NCBI GenBank assembly: GCA_031416075.1
Contig: JANOSY010000075.1
Coordinates: forward strand, 1-42,925
DNA length: 42,925 nt
DNA from: Candidatus Tenderia sp.
GTDB lineage: Bacteria; Pseudomonadota; Gammaproteobacteria; Tenderiales; Tenderiaceae
Direction: 5' to 3'
Shown: in pieces, positions 64 to 3,904 of the stretch
Layout: the number at the start of each line of letters is the position of its first letter
Position numbering within the stretch: position 1 is the stretch's first letter
Made by a program: the position numbers and the translations under genes
Notes under the pieces: model-generated
The model's input: only the letters and a program-made list of their open reading frames with translations
What the model was told of the DNA's origin: nothing
Databases searched by the model: none

Positions 64-136
64 GAACCGCCGTGTACGGACCCGTACGCACGGTGGTGTG
101 GGAGGGGGAGGCCGTGAGGCTTTCCCCTATCCCGAT
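64..136 (+). mobile_element. Group II intron 3' end (domains V-VI), class IIC-like; rest of the intron, if present, lies upstream of the window
   Basis: GAACCGCCGTGTACGGACCCGTACGCACGGTGGTGTGGGAGG is the short domain V with the CGC triad typical of IIC. It is followed by domain VI GGGGAGGCC-GTGA-GGCTTTCCCCT and a ...ATCCCGAT terminus. Confidence 0.9.
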
Positions 137-778
137 TGGGCATAACAGGAGAATTTAATGGGATTTGCTATTTCTTGGGTTGCAGTGAAACAAAAAGAAA
201 TTCATCAAGTTCTGGAGCTTTTAAGTCTTGAACGAACTGGTGAAACAGAAGAATTTCCTGAATCACCAATTACCTGCATTTCTATTTCAAATGGGTGGTT
301 TGTTGTATTTGCTAATAAATACAACTCCCCTTTGGTGTCTGCTAAATCTTTAGAGGCTATTTCAAAAGACTGCATGGTTATATCGTGCCAAGTCGAAGAG
401 CATGTGATGGTTAGTTCGGCAACTTGTTACGCTAATGGTATTTTATCTTGGCACGTTGAACATGATGCTCAGGAAAATATGTACTACATCGCATCAAGCG
501 GAAATGTCCCACCTGAATTTAATGAAATTCTAAAGGCAGCAAAGAAAGAACAAGATGACGATGGCGGTGAAGATTCAGAGGTTGATTATATTCATGATGT
601 CCCGATTTTTCTTGCTCAAACAGTGACCTCATTTCGACATGATGAAAATATGACAGATGAAAACCTAAAGCCATTTGAGGTTTTAAAATTAATTCGTAGT
701 GGTTCAAAGCAATCTACTTTTGAAAAACCGTGGTGGAAGTTTTGGTAGGGTGCTATGCCCAACCCGGCATTCAAGCCG
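137..778 (+). mobile_element. Integron-type gene cassette with truncated attC
   Basis: Begins TGGGCATA (core site G/TTGGGCA, cut by the intron). Ends TATGCCCAAC (R'' GCCCAAC 757-763) - CCGGC - ATTCAAGC (L''-like). The two ends are reverse complements. The RBS lies right after the core, the ORF is AT-rich, and no right attC arm was found. Confidence 0.75.
158..748 (+). CDS. Hypothetical cassette protein, 196 aa, acidic, C-terminal KPWWKFW
   Basis: ORF with AGGAG RBS, AT-rich relative to the rest of the window; KPWWKFW-type tails are common on cassette and accessory proteins. Confidence 0.85.
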   Translation: MGFAISWVAVKQKEIHQVLELLSLERTGETEEFPESPITCISISNGWFVVFANKYNSPLVSAKSLEAISKDCMVISCQVEEHVMVSSATCYANGILSWHVEHDAQENMYYIASSGNVPPEFNEILKAAKKEQDDDGGEDSEVDYIHDVPIFLAQTVTSFRHDENMTDENLKPFEVLKLIRSGSKQSTFEKPWWKFW

Positions 779-809
779 GGTATCTATGGGCTCCTCCCGT
801 TTTGCAAGG

Positions 810-1010
810 AGAAGATTGAACTTTTGTCCTCAGGGTAAAGATTGCGTGTATCTATCCGGCCTCTACGTGAGCTATACGATTAGCTCGGGCCATAATGCAA
901 TACGCACGCTGGGTTCCATATAGGGTGTCGGCCTTATTGGCCATACCCGGCTTCGGAGTGTCCTGGCGTCGGTCTTACCTGTTGGGCATCGTTCGTTCTT
1001 CACCTTCGCA
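810..1010 (-). ncRNA. Putative bridge RNA / seekRNA of the IS1111 element (boundaries approximate)
   Basis: Two loops closed by GGCC/GGCC stems. 921-927 and 944-953 match the two halves of the reconstructed target; 849-855 and 893-901 match the two halves of the circle junction. Confidence 0.85.
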
Positions 1011-1091
1011 AGAGCCCGCCCCACGAAGTGCTTTGGGCGTCGTGGCGGGTCTAGTGTGTAACTCGCTTTATTTAAACGTAGCCTACTAATG

Positions 1092-2144
1092 TCAGCGGGT
1101 TGCGATTCCCTCTGCTTTGTTTATCCATTGTGCCTGGTAATGGCGTCCGTGGGCGAGCAGCGCCCACGCGACTCGTGCCAATTTGTTGGCTAAGGCCACG
1201 GCGGCAACGTTGAAGCCTTTGGCTTCTTTAAGTTTGGTCGCCCACTGGAGCAGGCGATCTTCTTTGCCCTCGGCGCAGCGCAATGCACTGCGTGCGCCGT
1301 GAATCAGTAAGGTGCGCAGGTAGCAGTCGCCTCGTTTGGAGATACCGAATAGCTGCTGCTTGCCGCCGCTGGAGTGTTCATGGGGCGTGAGCCCGATGTT
1401 GGCCGAGAAGCAACGCCCAGAGGGGAAGTGGTGAGGATCACCTATTGCGGCGATGAAAGCGGTAGAGTTTAGTGGGCCAAACCCTGGCATCTCCATCAGC
1501 CGTACCACTTGCTCATCCTGGCGGGAGAGTCGCTGGACGCGGATATCGTAAGCATTGATCCACTCATCTTGCAGGGTGAGTTGTGATTGCATTTCGGCAA
1601 AGATCTCCAACGCACCAGAGGATAGGCCGTGGTGTTCGCCGCTTAACACTGCTGTCAATCCTTTGCGTAACGCGGTAGCGCTGCATGGAAAACTCAAACC
1701 ATATTCACCCAGCAGACTGCGTATCTGCAGCATCAGCGCCGTGCGGTTTTCTACCAAGCGCTGTCGCACCCGGTGCAGCATCTGCACATCTTGCTGCGTT
1801 TCGCTGTTAATCGGAACATACAATGTCTCTGGTTCAGAACGCAGATCACAAATCGCCTTTGCATCACGGTAGTCATTCTTATTGCCTAACACCCGACGGC
1901 TGACACGTTGACCGGCAATCAGTTTAACCTCATGTCCAAGCTCGTTGAGTTTTCGCGCCCAATAATGGGCTGTAGCACACGCCTCAATGCCAACCTTGGC
2001 AATAGGTAGATTAGCAAAGAACTCCAACACTTGATCTCGTGACATCTTGCGCTTCAGCACTTCATTGCCTCGCTCATCTTTGCCTACGGCATAGAAAACG
2101 TTCTTGGCAATATCCAATCCAACGACGACTGCGTTATGTTTCAT
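1092..2144 (-). CDS. IS110-family DEDD recombinase/transposase (likely start MKHNAVVVGLD at 2144)
   Basis: GLDIAK, IEAC and KNDYRDA give the DEDD tetrad; HSSGGK catalytic-Ser motif; GDCYLRTLLIHGA and VALANKLAR motifs; uninterrupted ORF. Confidence 0.96.
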   Translation of the reverse strand: MKHNAVVVGLDIAKNVFYAVGKDERGNEVLKRKMSRDQVLEFFANLPIAKVGIEACATAHYWARKLNELGHEVKLIAGQRVSRRVLGNKNDYRDAKAICDLRSEPETLYVPINSETQQDVQMLHRVRQRLVENRTALMLQIRSLLGEYGLSFPCSATALRKGLTAVLSGEHHGLSSGALEIFAEMQSQLTLQDEWINAYDIRVQRLSRQDEQVVRLMEMPGFGPLNSTAFIAAIGDPHHFPSGRCFSANIGLTPHEHSSGGKQQLFGISKRGDCYLRTLLIHGARSALRCAEGKEDRLLQWATKLKEAKGFNVAAVALANKLARVAWALLAHGRHYQAQWINKAEGIATR

Positions 2145-2235
2145 ATCGGATTCCCTCTCTCTCGTTTGGCCGATGACCGACTCACCCGCTTGGCACACCA
2201 TGATGCCGTTTGAAGATGGGAGGAGTCCATTTCAT

Positions 2236-2255
2236 TAGGGTGCATTCCATGTACC
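2236..2255 (+). repeat. GTAG-type REP-like hairpin, split by the IS insertion
   Basis: The reconstructed empty site reads GTAG-GGTGCA-TTCCA-TGTACC. Only one copy is in the window, so repetitiveness is unproven. Confidence 0.5.
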
Positions 2256-2521: not shown

Positions 2522-3328
2522 TTAAACCGCCAGCGCTGTCTGTTTTTTACGTCGGCTCAACCCAATGCCCATCAGCCCAAGGGCTAAAAGCATCACTGTT
2601 TCAGGTTCAGGGACTGTGGCATTGGAACCACCTTGGCTAAGTGACTGCACGTAACCTGTGCCGACCGGGGTGACGCTAATCTGGTTAAACGTGGCAATCA
2701 GCGAGCTTGTGTCCATAAATGAAACACTGAGTTGGTTAAAGGGGAACCTCAACAGTTCAGCCTCTCCCGGCAGTGCATGGCTCAATAAAGCGGTAGGTGT
2801 GGAATAGAGCAAGGTGGTCCAGAAGTTAAACCCCAGTGATGTCACACCACCACCAAGACTCGTGATGTCGATGTTGGCATTTAATGTGGTCAGGCTGCCG
2901 ACAAACATATCTTCCCAGGCGGTTCCACGACGGGTGAGGCGGCGATTGTTATCTACGATGACATCGGCATTGCCATTGGCAGCAACGTTGATGCCGTTAC
3001 CATTAACACTGAACCCATCCAACGCGCCGTTATAGGTCATGCGATCATTAAACCAGCTGATTGTTGAGGGTGAGTTGGTCTCGATGCGAAACTCACCGCT
3101 CAACTTATCCCCCTGATTAAACACAACAACCGTGCCATTATTATTGATTGAGGTGGTGTTGTTAATCGTTGCGGTGTAGTCATAACGCAGATACGTAGCA
3201 GATGCCGCCGTGGGCAGCAGCGCCCCGGCCAGGGTCATAATCGCCAGAACTGTGGCAGCAAACCCTTTTTTCCTGACAGATACATTTGAAGCGGTGGTGG
3301 AGACACTTTTCCAAACAACTGAACTCAT
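2522..3328 (-). CDS. PEP-CTERM sorting domain protein
   Basis: Signal peptide ending ASA; C-terminus VPEPETVMLLALGLMGIGLSRRKK; GGGAG RBS. Confidence 0.93.
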   Translation of the reverse strand: MSSVVWKSVSTTASNVSVRKKGFAATVLAIMTLAGALLPTAASATYLRYDYTATINNTTSINNNGTVVVFNQGDKLSGEFRIETNSPSTISWFNDRMTYNGALDGFSVNGNGINVAANGNADVIVDNNRRLTRRGTAWEDMFVGSLTTLNANIDITSLGGGVTSLGFNFWTTLLYSTPTALLSHALPGEAELLRFPFNQLSVSFMDTSSLIATFNQISVTPVGTGYVQSLSQGGSNATVPEPETVMLLALGLMGIGLSRRKKQTALAV

Positions 3329-3509: not shown

Positions 3510-3646
3510 CGCTCCACTGCCCCAACAACTGTTGATGGCGGTAGATGTAAAAGAGAATGGATTCTCTGCAGATCGTCAGGCCGGACTGCTACCACCCTGG
3601 CAGTTCTGGCCTTCTTTCACTGACTACAGTTCTGGAGAATCGGCAA

Positions 3647-3904
3647 ATGGCATGTGACTCTACTTACCGCAAACATGTTCACCAACAGATAACCCATGTT
3701 CACGCCCACCGACATGACGATGGCCACCACACTCATACCCACGCGGAACTGGTTGTAGGTGAACACGAACATGAACACACACACGAGGTAATGGAACACG
3801 CCCATGATCACGACCACAACGATGATCATCATGACCACGAACATGAGCATGAACACGATGATCATCACCATACAGTCCATAAAGTCGCTGCCGTGGCCGG
3901 ATAG
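3647..3904 (+). CDS. Small His-rich putative metal-binding protein (85 aa)
   Basis: GGAG RBS before the ATG at 3647; 28 His in HxH repeats with many Asp/Glu; no signal peptide. Confidence 0.8.
   Translation: MACDSTYRKHVHQQITHVHAHRHDDGHHTHTHAELVVGEHEHEHTHEVMEHAHDHDHNDDHHDHEHEHEHDDHHHTVHKVAAVAG

What the first reader, a model, noticed from the sequence alone, without database searches (positions are those of the whole stretch)
744..2255. The IS target is a hybrid of an attC left arm and a GTAG REP-like hairpin
Seen: the left target half overlaps the attC L''-like box (GCCCAAC-CCGGC-ATTCAAGCCG). The right half is GTAG-GGTGCA-TTCCA-TGTACC, and the expected right attC arm is absent. The guides match both halves, so the junction itself appears to be the programmed target rather than later damage. 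GGTAGGGTGC also occurs at 744-753, over the cassette stop codon. Known: IS110/IS1111 members targeting attC sites and members targeting REPs are described separately. Inference: either a repeat family combining both features, or an element retargeted between these niches.
Basis: partly seen in the sequence, partly recalled or inferred. Interest (0 to 1): 0.7.

Follow-up and report, generated by a model that had tools for sequence, protein, structure and literature searches.

The report
REP-targeting IS1111 beside truncated attC
An RNA-guided insertion sequence that aims at the head of a common genomic repeat (REP) sits here where such a repeat abuts half of an integron recombination site, and its two flanks come from different loci, so this is an ordinary element in an unusual spot.

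Summary
Window 783-2237 (minus strand) is an IS1111-type IS110-family element with 13-bp subterminal inverted repeats and a 309-nt 3' non-coding region. That region holds two guides, AAGCCGGGUA and CACCCUA, which together read a 15-bp target, AAGCCGGGTA|GGGTG.

The attC left arm is genuine. ORF 158-748 is an integron gene cassette. Its homologues in Lysobacter, Proluteimonas and Pseudoxanthomonas lie in classical cassette arrays with the same L'' box. The right half is a genuine REP associated with a RAYT transposase.

The idea of a programmed attC/REP hybrid target is not supported, for four reasons:
- The 15-bp target is an ordinary extended REP head (AGCCNNGTA|GGGTG). It occurs at 30 distinct sites in five genomes of the genus, and only 1 of those 30 has an attC box nearby.
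- The window's two flanks are not cognate. In congener G003 the window's right flank is contiguous with the left flank of contig C65.
- In congener G004 an attC left arm is already fused to a REP head with no IS present.
- None of 111 related IS ends from metagenomes has an attC-type flank, and 28 of 111 flanks end in hairpins.

Verdict: this is a new member of the known REP-targeting IS1111 elements. One copy hit a REP head that had replaced the right arm of a terminal attC.

The parts
65..136 (+). 3' end (domains V/VI) of a group II intron. It abuts the cassette start to within 1 nt.
   Evidence: Rfam RF00029, 45.2 bits against a gathering score of 40. The same arrangement is seen in G001 at L069:150-219, 50.2 bits.
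136..141 (+). Cassette 5' boundary TTGGGC, complementary to GCCCAA of the R'' box.
   Evidence: Read. The same 5'/3' complementarity holds in G004 (TTAGGC/GCCTAAC), in G001 (TTAGGG/CCCTAAC) and in the Xanthomonadales homologue cassettes (TTATAC/GTATAAC).
158..748 (+). Cassette ORF of 196 aa with no Pfam or NCBIfam family.
   Evidence: Relatives were found at 23 loci. The 57-59% identical ones lie in cassette arrays in Proluteimonas, Lysobacter and Pseudoxanthomonas. No DNA match in G001-G004.
744..753 (+). GGTAGGGTGC, a REP-type head that overlaps the stop codon.
   Evidence: GTAGGGTGCWATNNCC occurs 3 times in G000 and 0 times in the reversed-pattern control.
756..777 (+). attC left arm: R'' GCCCAAC, 5-nt spacer CCGGC, L'' ATTCAAGCCG.
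   Evidence: The L'' box matches 10 of 10 invariant columns (13-22) of 12 aligned attC sites. A position-weight score alone is not significant: 14.5 bits, rank 6, against a control maximum of 15.2.
773..782 (+). Left target half AAGCCGGGTA, read by guide 1.
   Evidence: The other left junctions read AGCCGGGTA (C40), AGCCCTGTA (C65) and AGCCATGTA (C64).
783..2237 (-). IS1111-type IS110-family insertion sequence, 1455 bp.
   Evidence: Ends follow the rule of 7 bp left and 3 bp right of the repeats (PMC11187229, passages). They agree with empty sites. About 4-5 copies: depth 114 against 23-29 for the flanks.
786..798 (.). Subterminal inverted repeat ATGGGCTCCTCCC. Its partner lies at 2218-2230.
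   Evidence: 12 of 13 positions are complementary. The other copies have A at window position 790.
2218..2230 (.). Subterminal inverted repeat (partner of 786-798).
1092..2144 (-). DEDD transposase/recombinase, 350 aa.
   Evidence: PF01548 and PF02371. NF033542 'IS110 family RNA-guided transposase', 311.7 bits against a cut-off of 140.
783..1091 (-). 3' non-coding region that should give the seekRNA/bridge RNA.
   Evidence: Fold z-score -2.91. It is identical across the guide region in the G002 copy.
944..953 (-). Guide 1, AAGCCGGGUA in the RNA. It pairs with the strand complementary to the window's left flank.
   Evidence: Equivalent guides sit at the same place in relatives.
921..927 (-). 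Guide 2, CACCCUA in the RNA. It reads TAGGGTG of the REP head.
   Evidence: The 16-nt hairpin between the two guides covaries in three elements.
1012..1039 (.). 28-nt unit of a second small repeat family, present in this IS copy only.
   Evidence: Absent from the G002 copy and from the contig of run X3. The core GTGCTTTGGGC occurs 12 times in G000.
2238..2255 (+). Right flank. GGGTG is the guide-read half. GGTGCAT-TCC-ATGTACC is the REP hairpin. This flank belongs to a different site from the left flank.
   Evidence: G003 joins it directly to the left flank of C65.

Best explanation
Window 783-2237 is one of about 4-5 copies of an IS1111-type, RNA-guided insertion sequence.

Its 3' non-coding region should give a seekRNA/bridge RNA with two guides separated by a small hairpin. 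Guide 1 (AAGCCGGGUA) and guide 2 (CACCCUA) together specify AAGCCGGGTA|GGGTG, overlapping at a TA core. That 15-mer is the extended head (AGCCNNGTA|GGGTG) of the RAYT-associated REP elements of this genus. The REP loop and 3' arm are not read by the guides, so the IS enters several REP subfamilies.

The left flank in the window is the last part of an integron gene cassette. Only the left arm (R''-spacer-L'') of its attC survives, because a REP head stands where the rest of the attC should be. The AAGCC of L'' doubles as the AGCC of the REP head, and the IS hit that head.

The right flank in the window belongs to a different REP site, the one whose left half ends contig C65. The attC-plus-ATTCC-hairpin 'hybrid' seen in the contig therefore arose either by recombination between two IS copies or by a wrong assembly path through the repeat in this metagenome-assembled genome.

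Shown: the IS anatomy, the guide matches and their covariation, the REP family with its RAYT, the cassette and attC left arm, and the non-cognate flanks.
Inferred: expression and use of the RNA, how the attC/REP fusion arose, and which right flank belongs to the window's left flank (C17 is the best candidate).
For: IS family:
- Pfam PF01548 and PF02371; NF033542 at 311.7 bits.
- 13-bp subterminal repeats with 7/3-bp extensions, and a 309-nt non-coding region downstream of tnp. These are the features described for IS1111 (PMC11187229, passages).

Guides:
- 10-nt and 7-nt matches that overlap at TA, with the top-strand complement first. This is the order published for IS1111 seekRNAs.
- The same geometry, with other sequences that match each element's own flanks, holds in L023 (47% aa identity), L024 (44%) and a Klebsiella plasmid IS (43%).
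- Of 79 related metagenomic elements, 31 have a guide of at least 7 nt to their own flank at that position. When flanks are paired with other elements the mean is 1.2 and the maximum 5.

REP:
- 32 intact REPs in 6 subfamilies in G000, against 0 in the reversed control. Six of the 32 carry the AGCCNNGTAR head.
- All 4 IS left junctions carry that head.
- A RAYT (NF047646, 206 bits against a cut-off of 80) is flanked by inverted GTAGGGTGGGCA REPs.
- AGCCNNGTARGGTG occurs 6/5/12/3/6 times in G000-G004, against 0/1/0/0/2 for the reversed pattern.
- Right junctions GGGTG plus four different hairpins are seen in the window, C17, G002 and G016.
- Empty perfect targets sit in plain REP context at G002:C46 and G003:C1.

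attC.

Non-cognate flanks: in G003, 1398 nt of the C65 left flank (93.7% identity) runs straight into 1161 nt of the window's right flank (93.5%) at an uninterrupted REP-like site. Unitigs of the probable source run do not link the two flanks, which have depths 29 and 23.

Fusion without an IS: G004:C123.
Against: - The window's left flank is the only 10 of 10 match to guide 1, and it lies in an attC. The IS is antisense to the cassette and close to the 5' end of the attC. That is the position and orientation reported for the IS1111-attC subgroup (PMC3001079, passage).
- The C40 left flank, a 9 of 9 match, also has GCCCAAC 70 nt upstream and TTGGGCATAAC before that. A second attC-like context cannot be excluded, although it scored -3.0 with the left-arm matrix.
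- The two REP-context left junctions in G000 (C65, C64) each have two mismatches to guide 1. I could not see the guides of those copies, because their contigs end 140-149 nt into the IS, and the run contigs I laid drop rare variants.
- The pairing of the window's left flank with the C17 right flank rests on a 14 of 17 local similarity to G004 (my rough estimate puts chance at about 0.01), on a contig of run X3, and on elimination.
- RNA expression was not tested.
Confidence: 0.75

Rival explanations
1. The IS is programmed for a composite attC-left-arm/REP site that forms a repeat family, or it is an attC-targeting IS1111 recently retargeted to REPs, with the AAGCCG of guide 1 a relic of reading the L'' box.
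For: - The attC left arm is genuine, and guide 1 covers AAGCCG of L''.
- The orientation and position match what is reported for IS1111-attC elements.
- An uninterrupted attC-arm/REP-head fusion exists in G004, and a looser one in G001.
- Natural retargeting by guide replacement is documented for ISEc11 and ISXne4 (PMC11187229, passage).
Against: - Only 1 of 30 AGCCNNGTARGGTG sites has an R'' box within 40 nt upstream.
- None of 111 related IS flanks has the left-arm signature, and 28 of 111 end in hairpins against 1 of 111 when shuffled.
- The 47% identical relative in G003 sits in another REP type.
- Full attCs of this genus found with model R1 lack AAGCCGGGTA.
- The window's right flank is not cognate.
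Confidence: 0.1
2. The window junction is a single original insertion, so its left and right flanks are cognate, and the G003 arrangement is the derived one.
For: - Contig C75 runs through the whole IS.
- Both flanks fit the guides.
- The window copy has a private base at 790 and the 28-nt insert, which may have let the assembler resolve it.
Against: - G003 has an uninterrupted site joining the C65 left flank to the window's right flank. In G000, C65 ends exactly at AGCCCTGTA|IS.
- The window's cassette is absent from G001-G004.
- The k=31 unitigs of the probable source run do not bridge the IS.
Confidence: 0.08
3. The 'attC left arm' is a chance resemblance inside a degenerate REP, and ORF 158-748 is an ordinary gene.
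For: - The left-arm matrix score is 14.5 bits, rank 6 in the genome, below the reversed-genome maximum of 15.2.
- Covariance model R1 gave no truncated hit.
- G000 has no integron integrase above the cut-off.
- GTAGGGTGCWATNNCC is shared with two other G000 sites.
Against: - Homologues of the ORF are cassette-borne and followed by attCs with the identical 10-nt L'' at the same spacing.
- TTGGGC upstream of the ribosome-binding site is complementary to R''.
- The genus has integron integrases (G003 483 bits, G002 478 bits) and full attCs in all five genomes.
Confidence: 0.05

Closest known systems
ISPa11, and ISPpu9/ISPpu10: REP-targeting IS1111/IS110 elements
   Same: - DEDD transposase, site-specific insertion at a fixed position inside REPs, no clear target duplication.
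- For ISPa11, a seekRNA from the non-coding region downstream of tnp, with a top-strand complement followed by a bottom-strand match.
(PMC1525189 and PMC11187229, passages read.)
   Different: - The REP family here is different (GTAGGGTG head with an AGCC extension).
- Only the REP head and 5 nt of the stem are read, so several hairpin subfamilies are hit.
- Sequence relationship to ISPa11 was not measured, because no reference sequence was at hand.
IS1111-attC subgroup (ISPa21, ISPst6, ISKpn4, ISPa25)
   Same: IS1111 architecture. At the window's left junction the IS lies near the 5' end of an attC, antisense to the cassette, as reported for that subgroup (PMC3001079, passage).
   Different: - Other copies and relatives sit in REPs, not attCs.
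- The attC here lacks its right arm.
- Clade membership was not tested. The defining papers (PMC2447020 and Post & Hall 2009) were not held.
IS621, the IS110-group bridge-RNA recombinase
   Same: RNA-guided recognition of both target and donor with a dinucleotide core. The natural target is in a REP, according to the discussion of PMC1525189. The candidate donor guides here (CAUUAU and AUAGAUA, core TA) parallel the target guides.
   Different: In IS621 the bridge RNA is encoded in the left end, upstream of the recombinase gene, and there are no long subterminal repeats (PMC11208160, passages). The donor guides here are 6-7 nt and could be chance matches.
IS4321/IS5075
   Same: Named IS1111 members. 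Their transposases are 37% identical over 96% of this one.
   Different: [quoted passage not shown]

Membership tests
IS1111 group of the IS110 family | DEDD (RuvC-like) N-terminal domain plus a Transposase_20 C-terminal domain | tested here: met
   PF01548 at 1e-17 and PF02371 at 6.3e-22. NF033542 at 311.7 bits against a cut-off of 140.
IS1111 group of the IS110 family | Subterminal inverted repeats of 11-13 bp, with 7-bp and 3-bp terminal extensions | tested here: met
   13-bp repeats at 786-798 and 2218-2230, 12 of 13 complementary. With 7/3 extensions the element is 783-2237, which agrees with the empty sites. The rule comes from PMC11187229.
IS1111 group of the IS110 family | Long non-coding region downstream of tnp that encodes a seekRNA, with the top-strand complement 5' of the bottom-strand match and the two overlapping in the target | tested here: met
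   By sequence only: guides at positions 139-148 and 165-171 of the non-coding region overlap at TA, and covariation is seen in relatives. The RNA itself was not observed.
REP / RAYT system | GTAG-type head followed by an imperfect palindrome, in many intergenic copies | tested here: met
   32 intact copies in 6 subfamilies, against 0 in the reversed control. Whether each copy is intergenic was not checked one by one.
REP / RAYT system | A RAYT (Y1 transposase) gene flanked by inverted REPs | tested here: met
   G000:C55 ORF of 186 aa, NF047646 at 206 bits against a cut-off of 80. REPs lie at 51010 (+) and at 51624 and 51798 (-).
Integron attC site | R'' (RYYYAAC), a 5-nt spacer and an L'' box directly after a cassette ORF, with the cassette's 5' TTRRRY complementary to R'' | tested here: met
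   GCCCAAC-CCGGC-ATTCAAGCCG at 756-777 and TTGGGC at 136-141. L'' matches 10 of 10 invariant columns of alignment A2. Homologues are cassette-borne.
Integron attC site | L' and R' (GTTRRRY) right arm able to pair with the left arm | tested here: not met
   No GTTRRRY lies within 250 nt of the window's right flank or the C17 right flank. Model R1 gave no hit over 560-782.
Integron attC site | An integron integrase in the genome | tested here: not met
   G000: best TIGR02249 score 86.7 bits against a cut-off of 265, plus a 41-aa N-terminal fragment at C26:1199-1324. Congeners G003 (483 bits) and G002 (478 bits) have one.
IS1111-attC subgroup | Transposase inside the monophyletic attC-associated clade | not tested
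   No named ISPa21, ISPst6 or ISKpn4 sequence could be fetched. PMC2447020 was not held.
IS1111-attC subgroup | Recurrent insertion in attC sites | tested here: not met
   One of 4 left junctions in G000 is clearly in an attC arm. The copies in G002 and G016 and the empty perfect sites are in REPs. None of 111 related ends has an attC-type flank.

The most novel reading that the evidence does not exclude
The REP head is not just debris next to a broken attC. In this genus the distal end of the chromosomal cassette array is a conserved attC-left-arm/REP chimera. Unrelated terminal cassettes in G000, G004 and G001, each with its own matching TTRRRY/RYYYAAC pair, all abut the same REP cluster. 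On this reading the chimera still takes part in cassette turnover, or forms repeatedly through the shared AAGCC, and the IS guide reads exactly this junction.
Probability: 0.08. Interest if true: 0.7.

Novelty: new member of a known kind. Interest (0 to 1): 0.33.

Why it matters
IS110/IS1111 elements are the source of programmable bridge-RNA/seekRNA recombinases, so natural sets of guides and targets are useful.
- This element and its 111 metagenomic relatives give a ready covariation series with the guides at a fixed position.
- Within one genome, two left junctions carry two mismatches to guide 1 (AGCCCTGTA and AGCCATGTA against the guide's AGCCGGGTA).

The case is also a caution. In a metagenome-assembled genome, the two flanks of a multi-copy IS need not belong together, and a 'hybrid target' can be built from them.

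The fusion of a REP head onto a truncated terminal attC, found in at least two species, is a small new observation on how REPs and integron arrays interact.

Tried and rejected
- I first concluded that the attC arm was a chance resemblance. The grounds were no integron integrase in G000, a crude palindrome scan with 0 hits, AGCC being part of REP heads, and similarity of 744-763 to two other G000 sites. I dropped that reading after one search showed the ORF's homologues in classical cassette arrays.
- Truncated searches with covariance model R1 on the window, C40 and G004 left flanks gave nothing. A half-site is too short for that model.
- The left-arm weight matrix did not lift the window site above the control.
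- Pairing the other IS junctions by synteny failed. The C40 proximal 540 nt is specific to G000. The C64 neighbour in G001 maps to a rearranged part of C9.
- The first metagenome scan, with the exact left end of this IS, found 0 matches.
- The plasmid search gave no element I could label as attC-targeting, so the requested tree was not built.
- Rfam has no family matching the non-coding region.
- Laid contigs cannot show rare guide variants or link the flanks. Parts without cover in runs X2-X4 mean nothing.
- Supplementary figures of PMC11187229 (targets and seekRNAs of ISKpn4, ISPst6 and ISPa25) were not seen. They may bear on whether L'' is part of the IS1111-attC target.
Full report
**What is there.** The window carries an IS110-family element on the minus strand. 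The transposase gene is at 1092-2144. It matches Pfam PF01548 and PF02371 and NCBIfam NF033542, 'IS110 family RNA-guided transposase', at 311.7 bits. The gene is followed by a 309-nt non-coding region (783-1091).

The ends have 13-bp subterminal inverted repeats at 786-798 and 2218-2230. Applying the 7-bp/3-bp terminal extensions described for IS1111 elements (PMC11187229, passages) gives an element of 783-2237. The junctions read ...ATTCAAGCCGGGTA|IS|GGGTGCATTCCATGTACC.... 'GTAG' exists only when read across the IS.

**Guides.** In the RNA sense the non-coding region holds AAGCCGGGTA (window 944-953), a 16-nt hairpin, then CACCCTA (921-927). The first is complementary to one strand of the left flank over 10 nt. 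The second equals the other side of the target from -5 to +2, and the two overlap at TA. This order and overlap are what Siddiquee et al. report for IS1111 seekRNAs (passages).

Several results show this is not chance:
- Matches of 9 nt or more reached the observed number in 1.65% of 2000 shuffles.
- Two relatives with 47% and 44% identical transposases (L023, L024) and a Klebsiella plasmid element (43%) have different sequences at the same two positions. Each matches its own flanks, and the hairpin between the guides covaries.
- Of 79 distinct related elements from metagenomes with enough sequence, 31 carry a guide of at least 7 nt to their own flank at positions 140-185. When flanks and elements are mispaired the mean is 1.2 and the maximum 5.

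The programmed target is therefore 15 bp: AAGCCGGGTA|GGGTG. Candidate donor guides (CAUUAU and AUAGAUA, core TA) parallel this geometry, but at 6-7 nt they could be chance.

**The right half is a REP.** G000 has 32 intact elements of the form GTA(G/A)GGTG plus hairpin, in six subfamilies. The reversed-sequence control has none. A 186-aa ORF on C55 is a REP-associated tyrosine transposase (NF047646, 206 bits against a cut-off of 80). It is flanked by inverted GTAGGGTGGGCA REPs.

Six of the 32 REPs, and all four IS left junctions in G000, carry AGCC two bases before GTA. Across five genomes of the genus, AGCCNNGTARGGTG occurs 6, 5, 12, 3 and 6 times, against 0, 1, 0, 0 and 2 for the reversed pattern. 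All 30 distinct sites are followed by REP hairpins.

Right junctions of four copies are GGGTG followed by four different hairpins: the window, C17, G002 and G016. Empty perfect targets exist in plain REP context at G002:C46 and G003:C1. AAGCCGG is therefore part of an ordinary REP head.

**The left half is nevertheless a true attC arm.** I first doubted this. G000 has no integron integrase above the cut-off, and a weight matrix of the left arm ranks the site only sixth, below a control maximum.

The ORF at 158-748 settles the question. It has relatives at 23 loci. The closest (57-59% identical, in Proluteimonas, Lysobacter and Pseudoxanthomonas) lie in classical cassette arrays. Each is followed a few bases after the stop codon by RYYTAAC-AATTC-ATTCAAGCCGA...CGGCTTAAYTCAGGCGTTRRRY. 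The window has:
- the same layout, GCCCAAC-CCGGC-ATTCAAGCCG;
- a 10 of 10 match to the invariant L'' columns;
- the cassette signature TTGGGC (136-141), complementary to R'', just upstream of the ribosome-binding site.

The genus has integrons. Integron integrases are present in G003 (483 bits) and G002 (478 bits), with fragments in G001 and G004. Full attCs were found with a model built from the 12 aligned sites in all five genomes. No right arm follows the window's left arm in any candidate partner.

**The two flanks do not belong together.** In congener G003, 1398 nt homologous to the left flank of G000 contig C65 (93.7% identity) runs directly into 1161 nt homologous to the window's right flank (93.5%). 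The joint is an uninterrupted REP-like site...AGCCCTGTAG.... In G000, C65 ends exactly at AGCCCTGTA|IS. The IS therefore entered that site, and the window's right flank is its right half.

The genome is a metagenome assembly. In the probable source run the left flank (depth 29), the IS (depth 114) and the right flank (depth 23) are separate unitigs, and nothing links the two flanks. The contig's path is either a real recombinant between IS copies or an assembly choice. I cannot tell which.

The window's left flank probably pairs with the right junction at the end of C17 (GGGTGCGCTGTGCGCAC...), for two reasons:
- A contig of run X3 joins GCCGGGTA|IS| to that flank.
- The G004 orthologue of the C17 flank (92% identity over 501 nt) is preceded by a cassette and an attC left arm similar to the window's, 14 of 17 positions.

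**The fusion predates the IS.** G004:C123 reads GTTAGGC, then a 214-aa ORF, then GCCTAAC-ACTGC-ATTCGAGAGCC-AAGCCAAGCCAAGCCAGGTA|GGGTGGGCAC..., followed by the REP cluster. No IS is present. The 214-aa ORF is unrelated to the window's ORF.

G001 shows a looser version at the same locus. A group II intron 3' end is followed by TTAGGG, a cassette ending in CCCTAAC, and the same REP. A REP head thus stands where the rest of the terminal attC should be in at least two species. How that arose is not shown. Deletion through the shared AAGCC and REP insertion are both possible. The fact that the terminal cassettes differ remains unexplained.

**Relatives.** None of 111 distinct related IS ends has an attC left-arm signature in 60 nt of flank. 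28 of 111 flanks end in a perfect stem of 6 bp or more, against 1 of 111 when shuffled. The relative in G003 sits in another REP type, GTAGCC|CGGATGC.... The clade targets palindromic repeats.

**Comparison with what is known.** REP-targeting IS110/IS1111 elements are well described: ISPa11, ISPpu9/10 and IS621 (PMC1525189, PMC11187229 and PMC11208160, passages read). attC-targeting ones are also described: ISPa21, ISPst6 and ISKpn4. This element is a new member of the first kind. At one site it mimics the second, being antisense to the cassette and near the 5' end of an attC (compare PMC3001079). Membership of the IS1111-attC clade was not tested. The defining papers were not held and no named reference sequence was available.

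**Limits.**
- RNA expression was not shown.
- The guides of the C64 and C65 copies were not seen.
- The pairing of the window's left flank is inferred.
- C40's left flank has a weak attC-like context that I could not settle.
- Supplements of the seekRNA paper were not seen.

Noticed in passing
window 1012-1039: This IS copy carries a 28-nt insert that is exactly one unit of a small repeat family (core GTGCTTTGGGC, 12 copies in G000). The 100% aa-identical copy in G002 and the contig of run X3 lack it. It looks like a recent insertion polymorphism of a REP-like unit inside an IS non-coding region.
   Followed up: partly
window 65-141; L069:150-225 (G001:C151): In two species a group II intron 3' end abuts (within 1 nt) the TTRRRY start of a gene cassette, in the same orientation as the cassette ORF. 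Group IIC-attC introns are reported in the opposite orientation (PMC3001079). Loose ends of other intron copies in the laid runs diverge at window positions 137, 141 and 149.
   Followed up: partly
L071 (G004:C123) 763-1500; L069 (G001:C151) 219-720; window 136-782: The locus next to the same REP cluster and conserved downstream gene holds a different terminal cassette in G000, G004 and G001. Each has its own matching TTRRRY/RYYYAAC pair, yet the terminal attC lacks a right arm. How these cassettes turn over is unexplained.
   Followed up: partly
G000:C26:1199-1324: A 41-aa ORF matches the first 39 positions of the integron integrase model (37.8 bits). It is the only trace of an integron integrase in this 99.98%-complete genome, although full attCs persist (C61, C17, and probably C9, C73, C32, C64 and C82).
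   Followed up: partly
G000:C64 and C65 left junctions: Two IS copies sit at AGCCCTGTA and AGCCATGTA, two mismatches from guide 1 (AGCCGGGTA). Either these two positions are tolerated, or those copies carry variant guides that the assembly does not show.
   Followed up: partly
L126-L245 (metagenome contigs): More than 111 distinct IS1111 elements share the end motif ATGGNCTCCTCCCGTTTTGCAAG and mostly a TAT extension, but have very diverse flanks. This is a large natural series of reprogrammed guides.
   Followed up: partly
G000 genome, e.g. the end of C9: A repeat of more than 100 nt is present in 27 identical copies (it contains GTAGCGCTATTATATATGATC). A second motif, TAGTGTACTGTAACAAAT, occurs 36 times. 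Neither was characterised.
   Followed up: no
window 3557-3904 (+): An ORF of 115 aa has an extremely His/Asp/Glu-rich C-terminal half (HDHDHNDDHHDHEHEHEHDDHHH). It may be a metal-binding protein. Rfam gave only sub-threshold matches in this region.
   Followed up: no
window 2522-3328 (-): A 268-aa protein with a C-terminal PEP-CTERM sorting motif (PF07589, 30.2 bits) lies directly next to the IS.
   Followed up: no
G000:C40:5429-5517: The left flank of another IS copy has TTGGGCATAAC, the same 11-mer as the window's cassette start. GCCCAAC follows 12 nt later, and the IS junction lies 70 nt beyond that. This could be an ORF-less mini-cassette or chance. The last 540 nt of this flank is absent from congeners.
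   Followed up: partly
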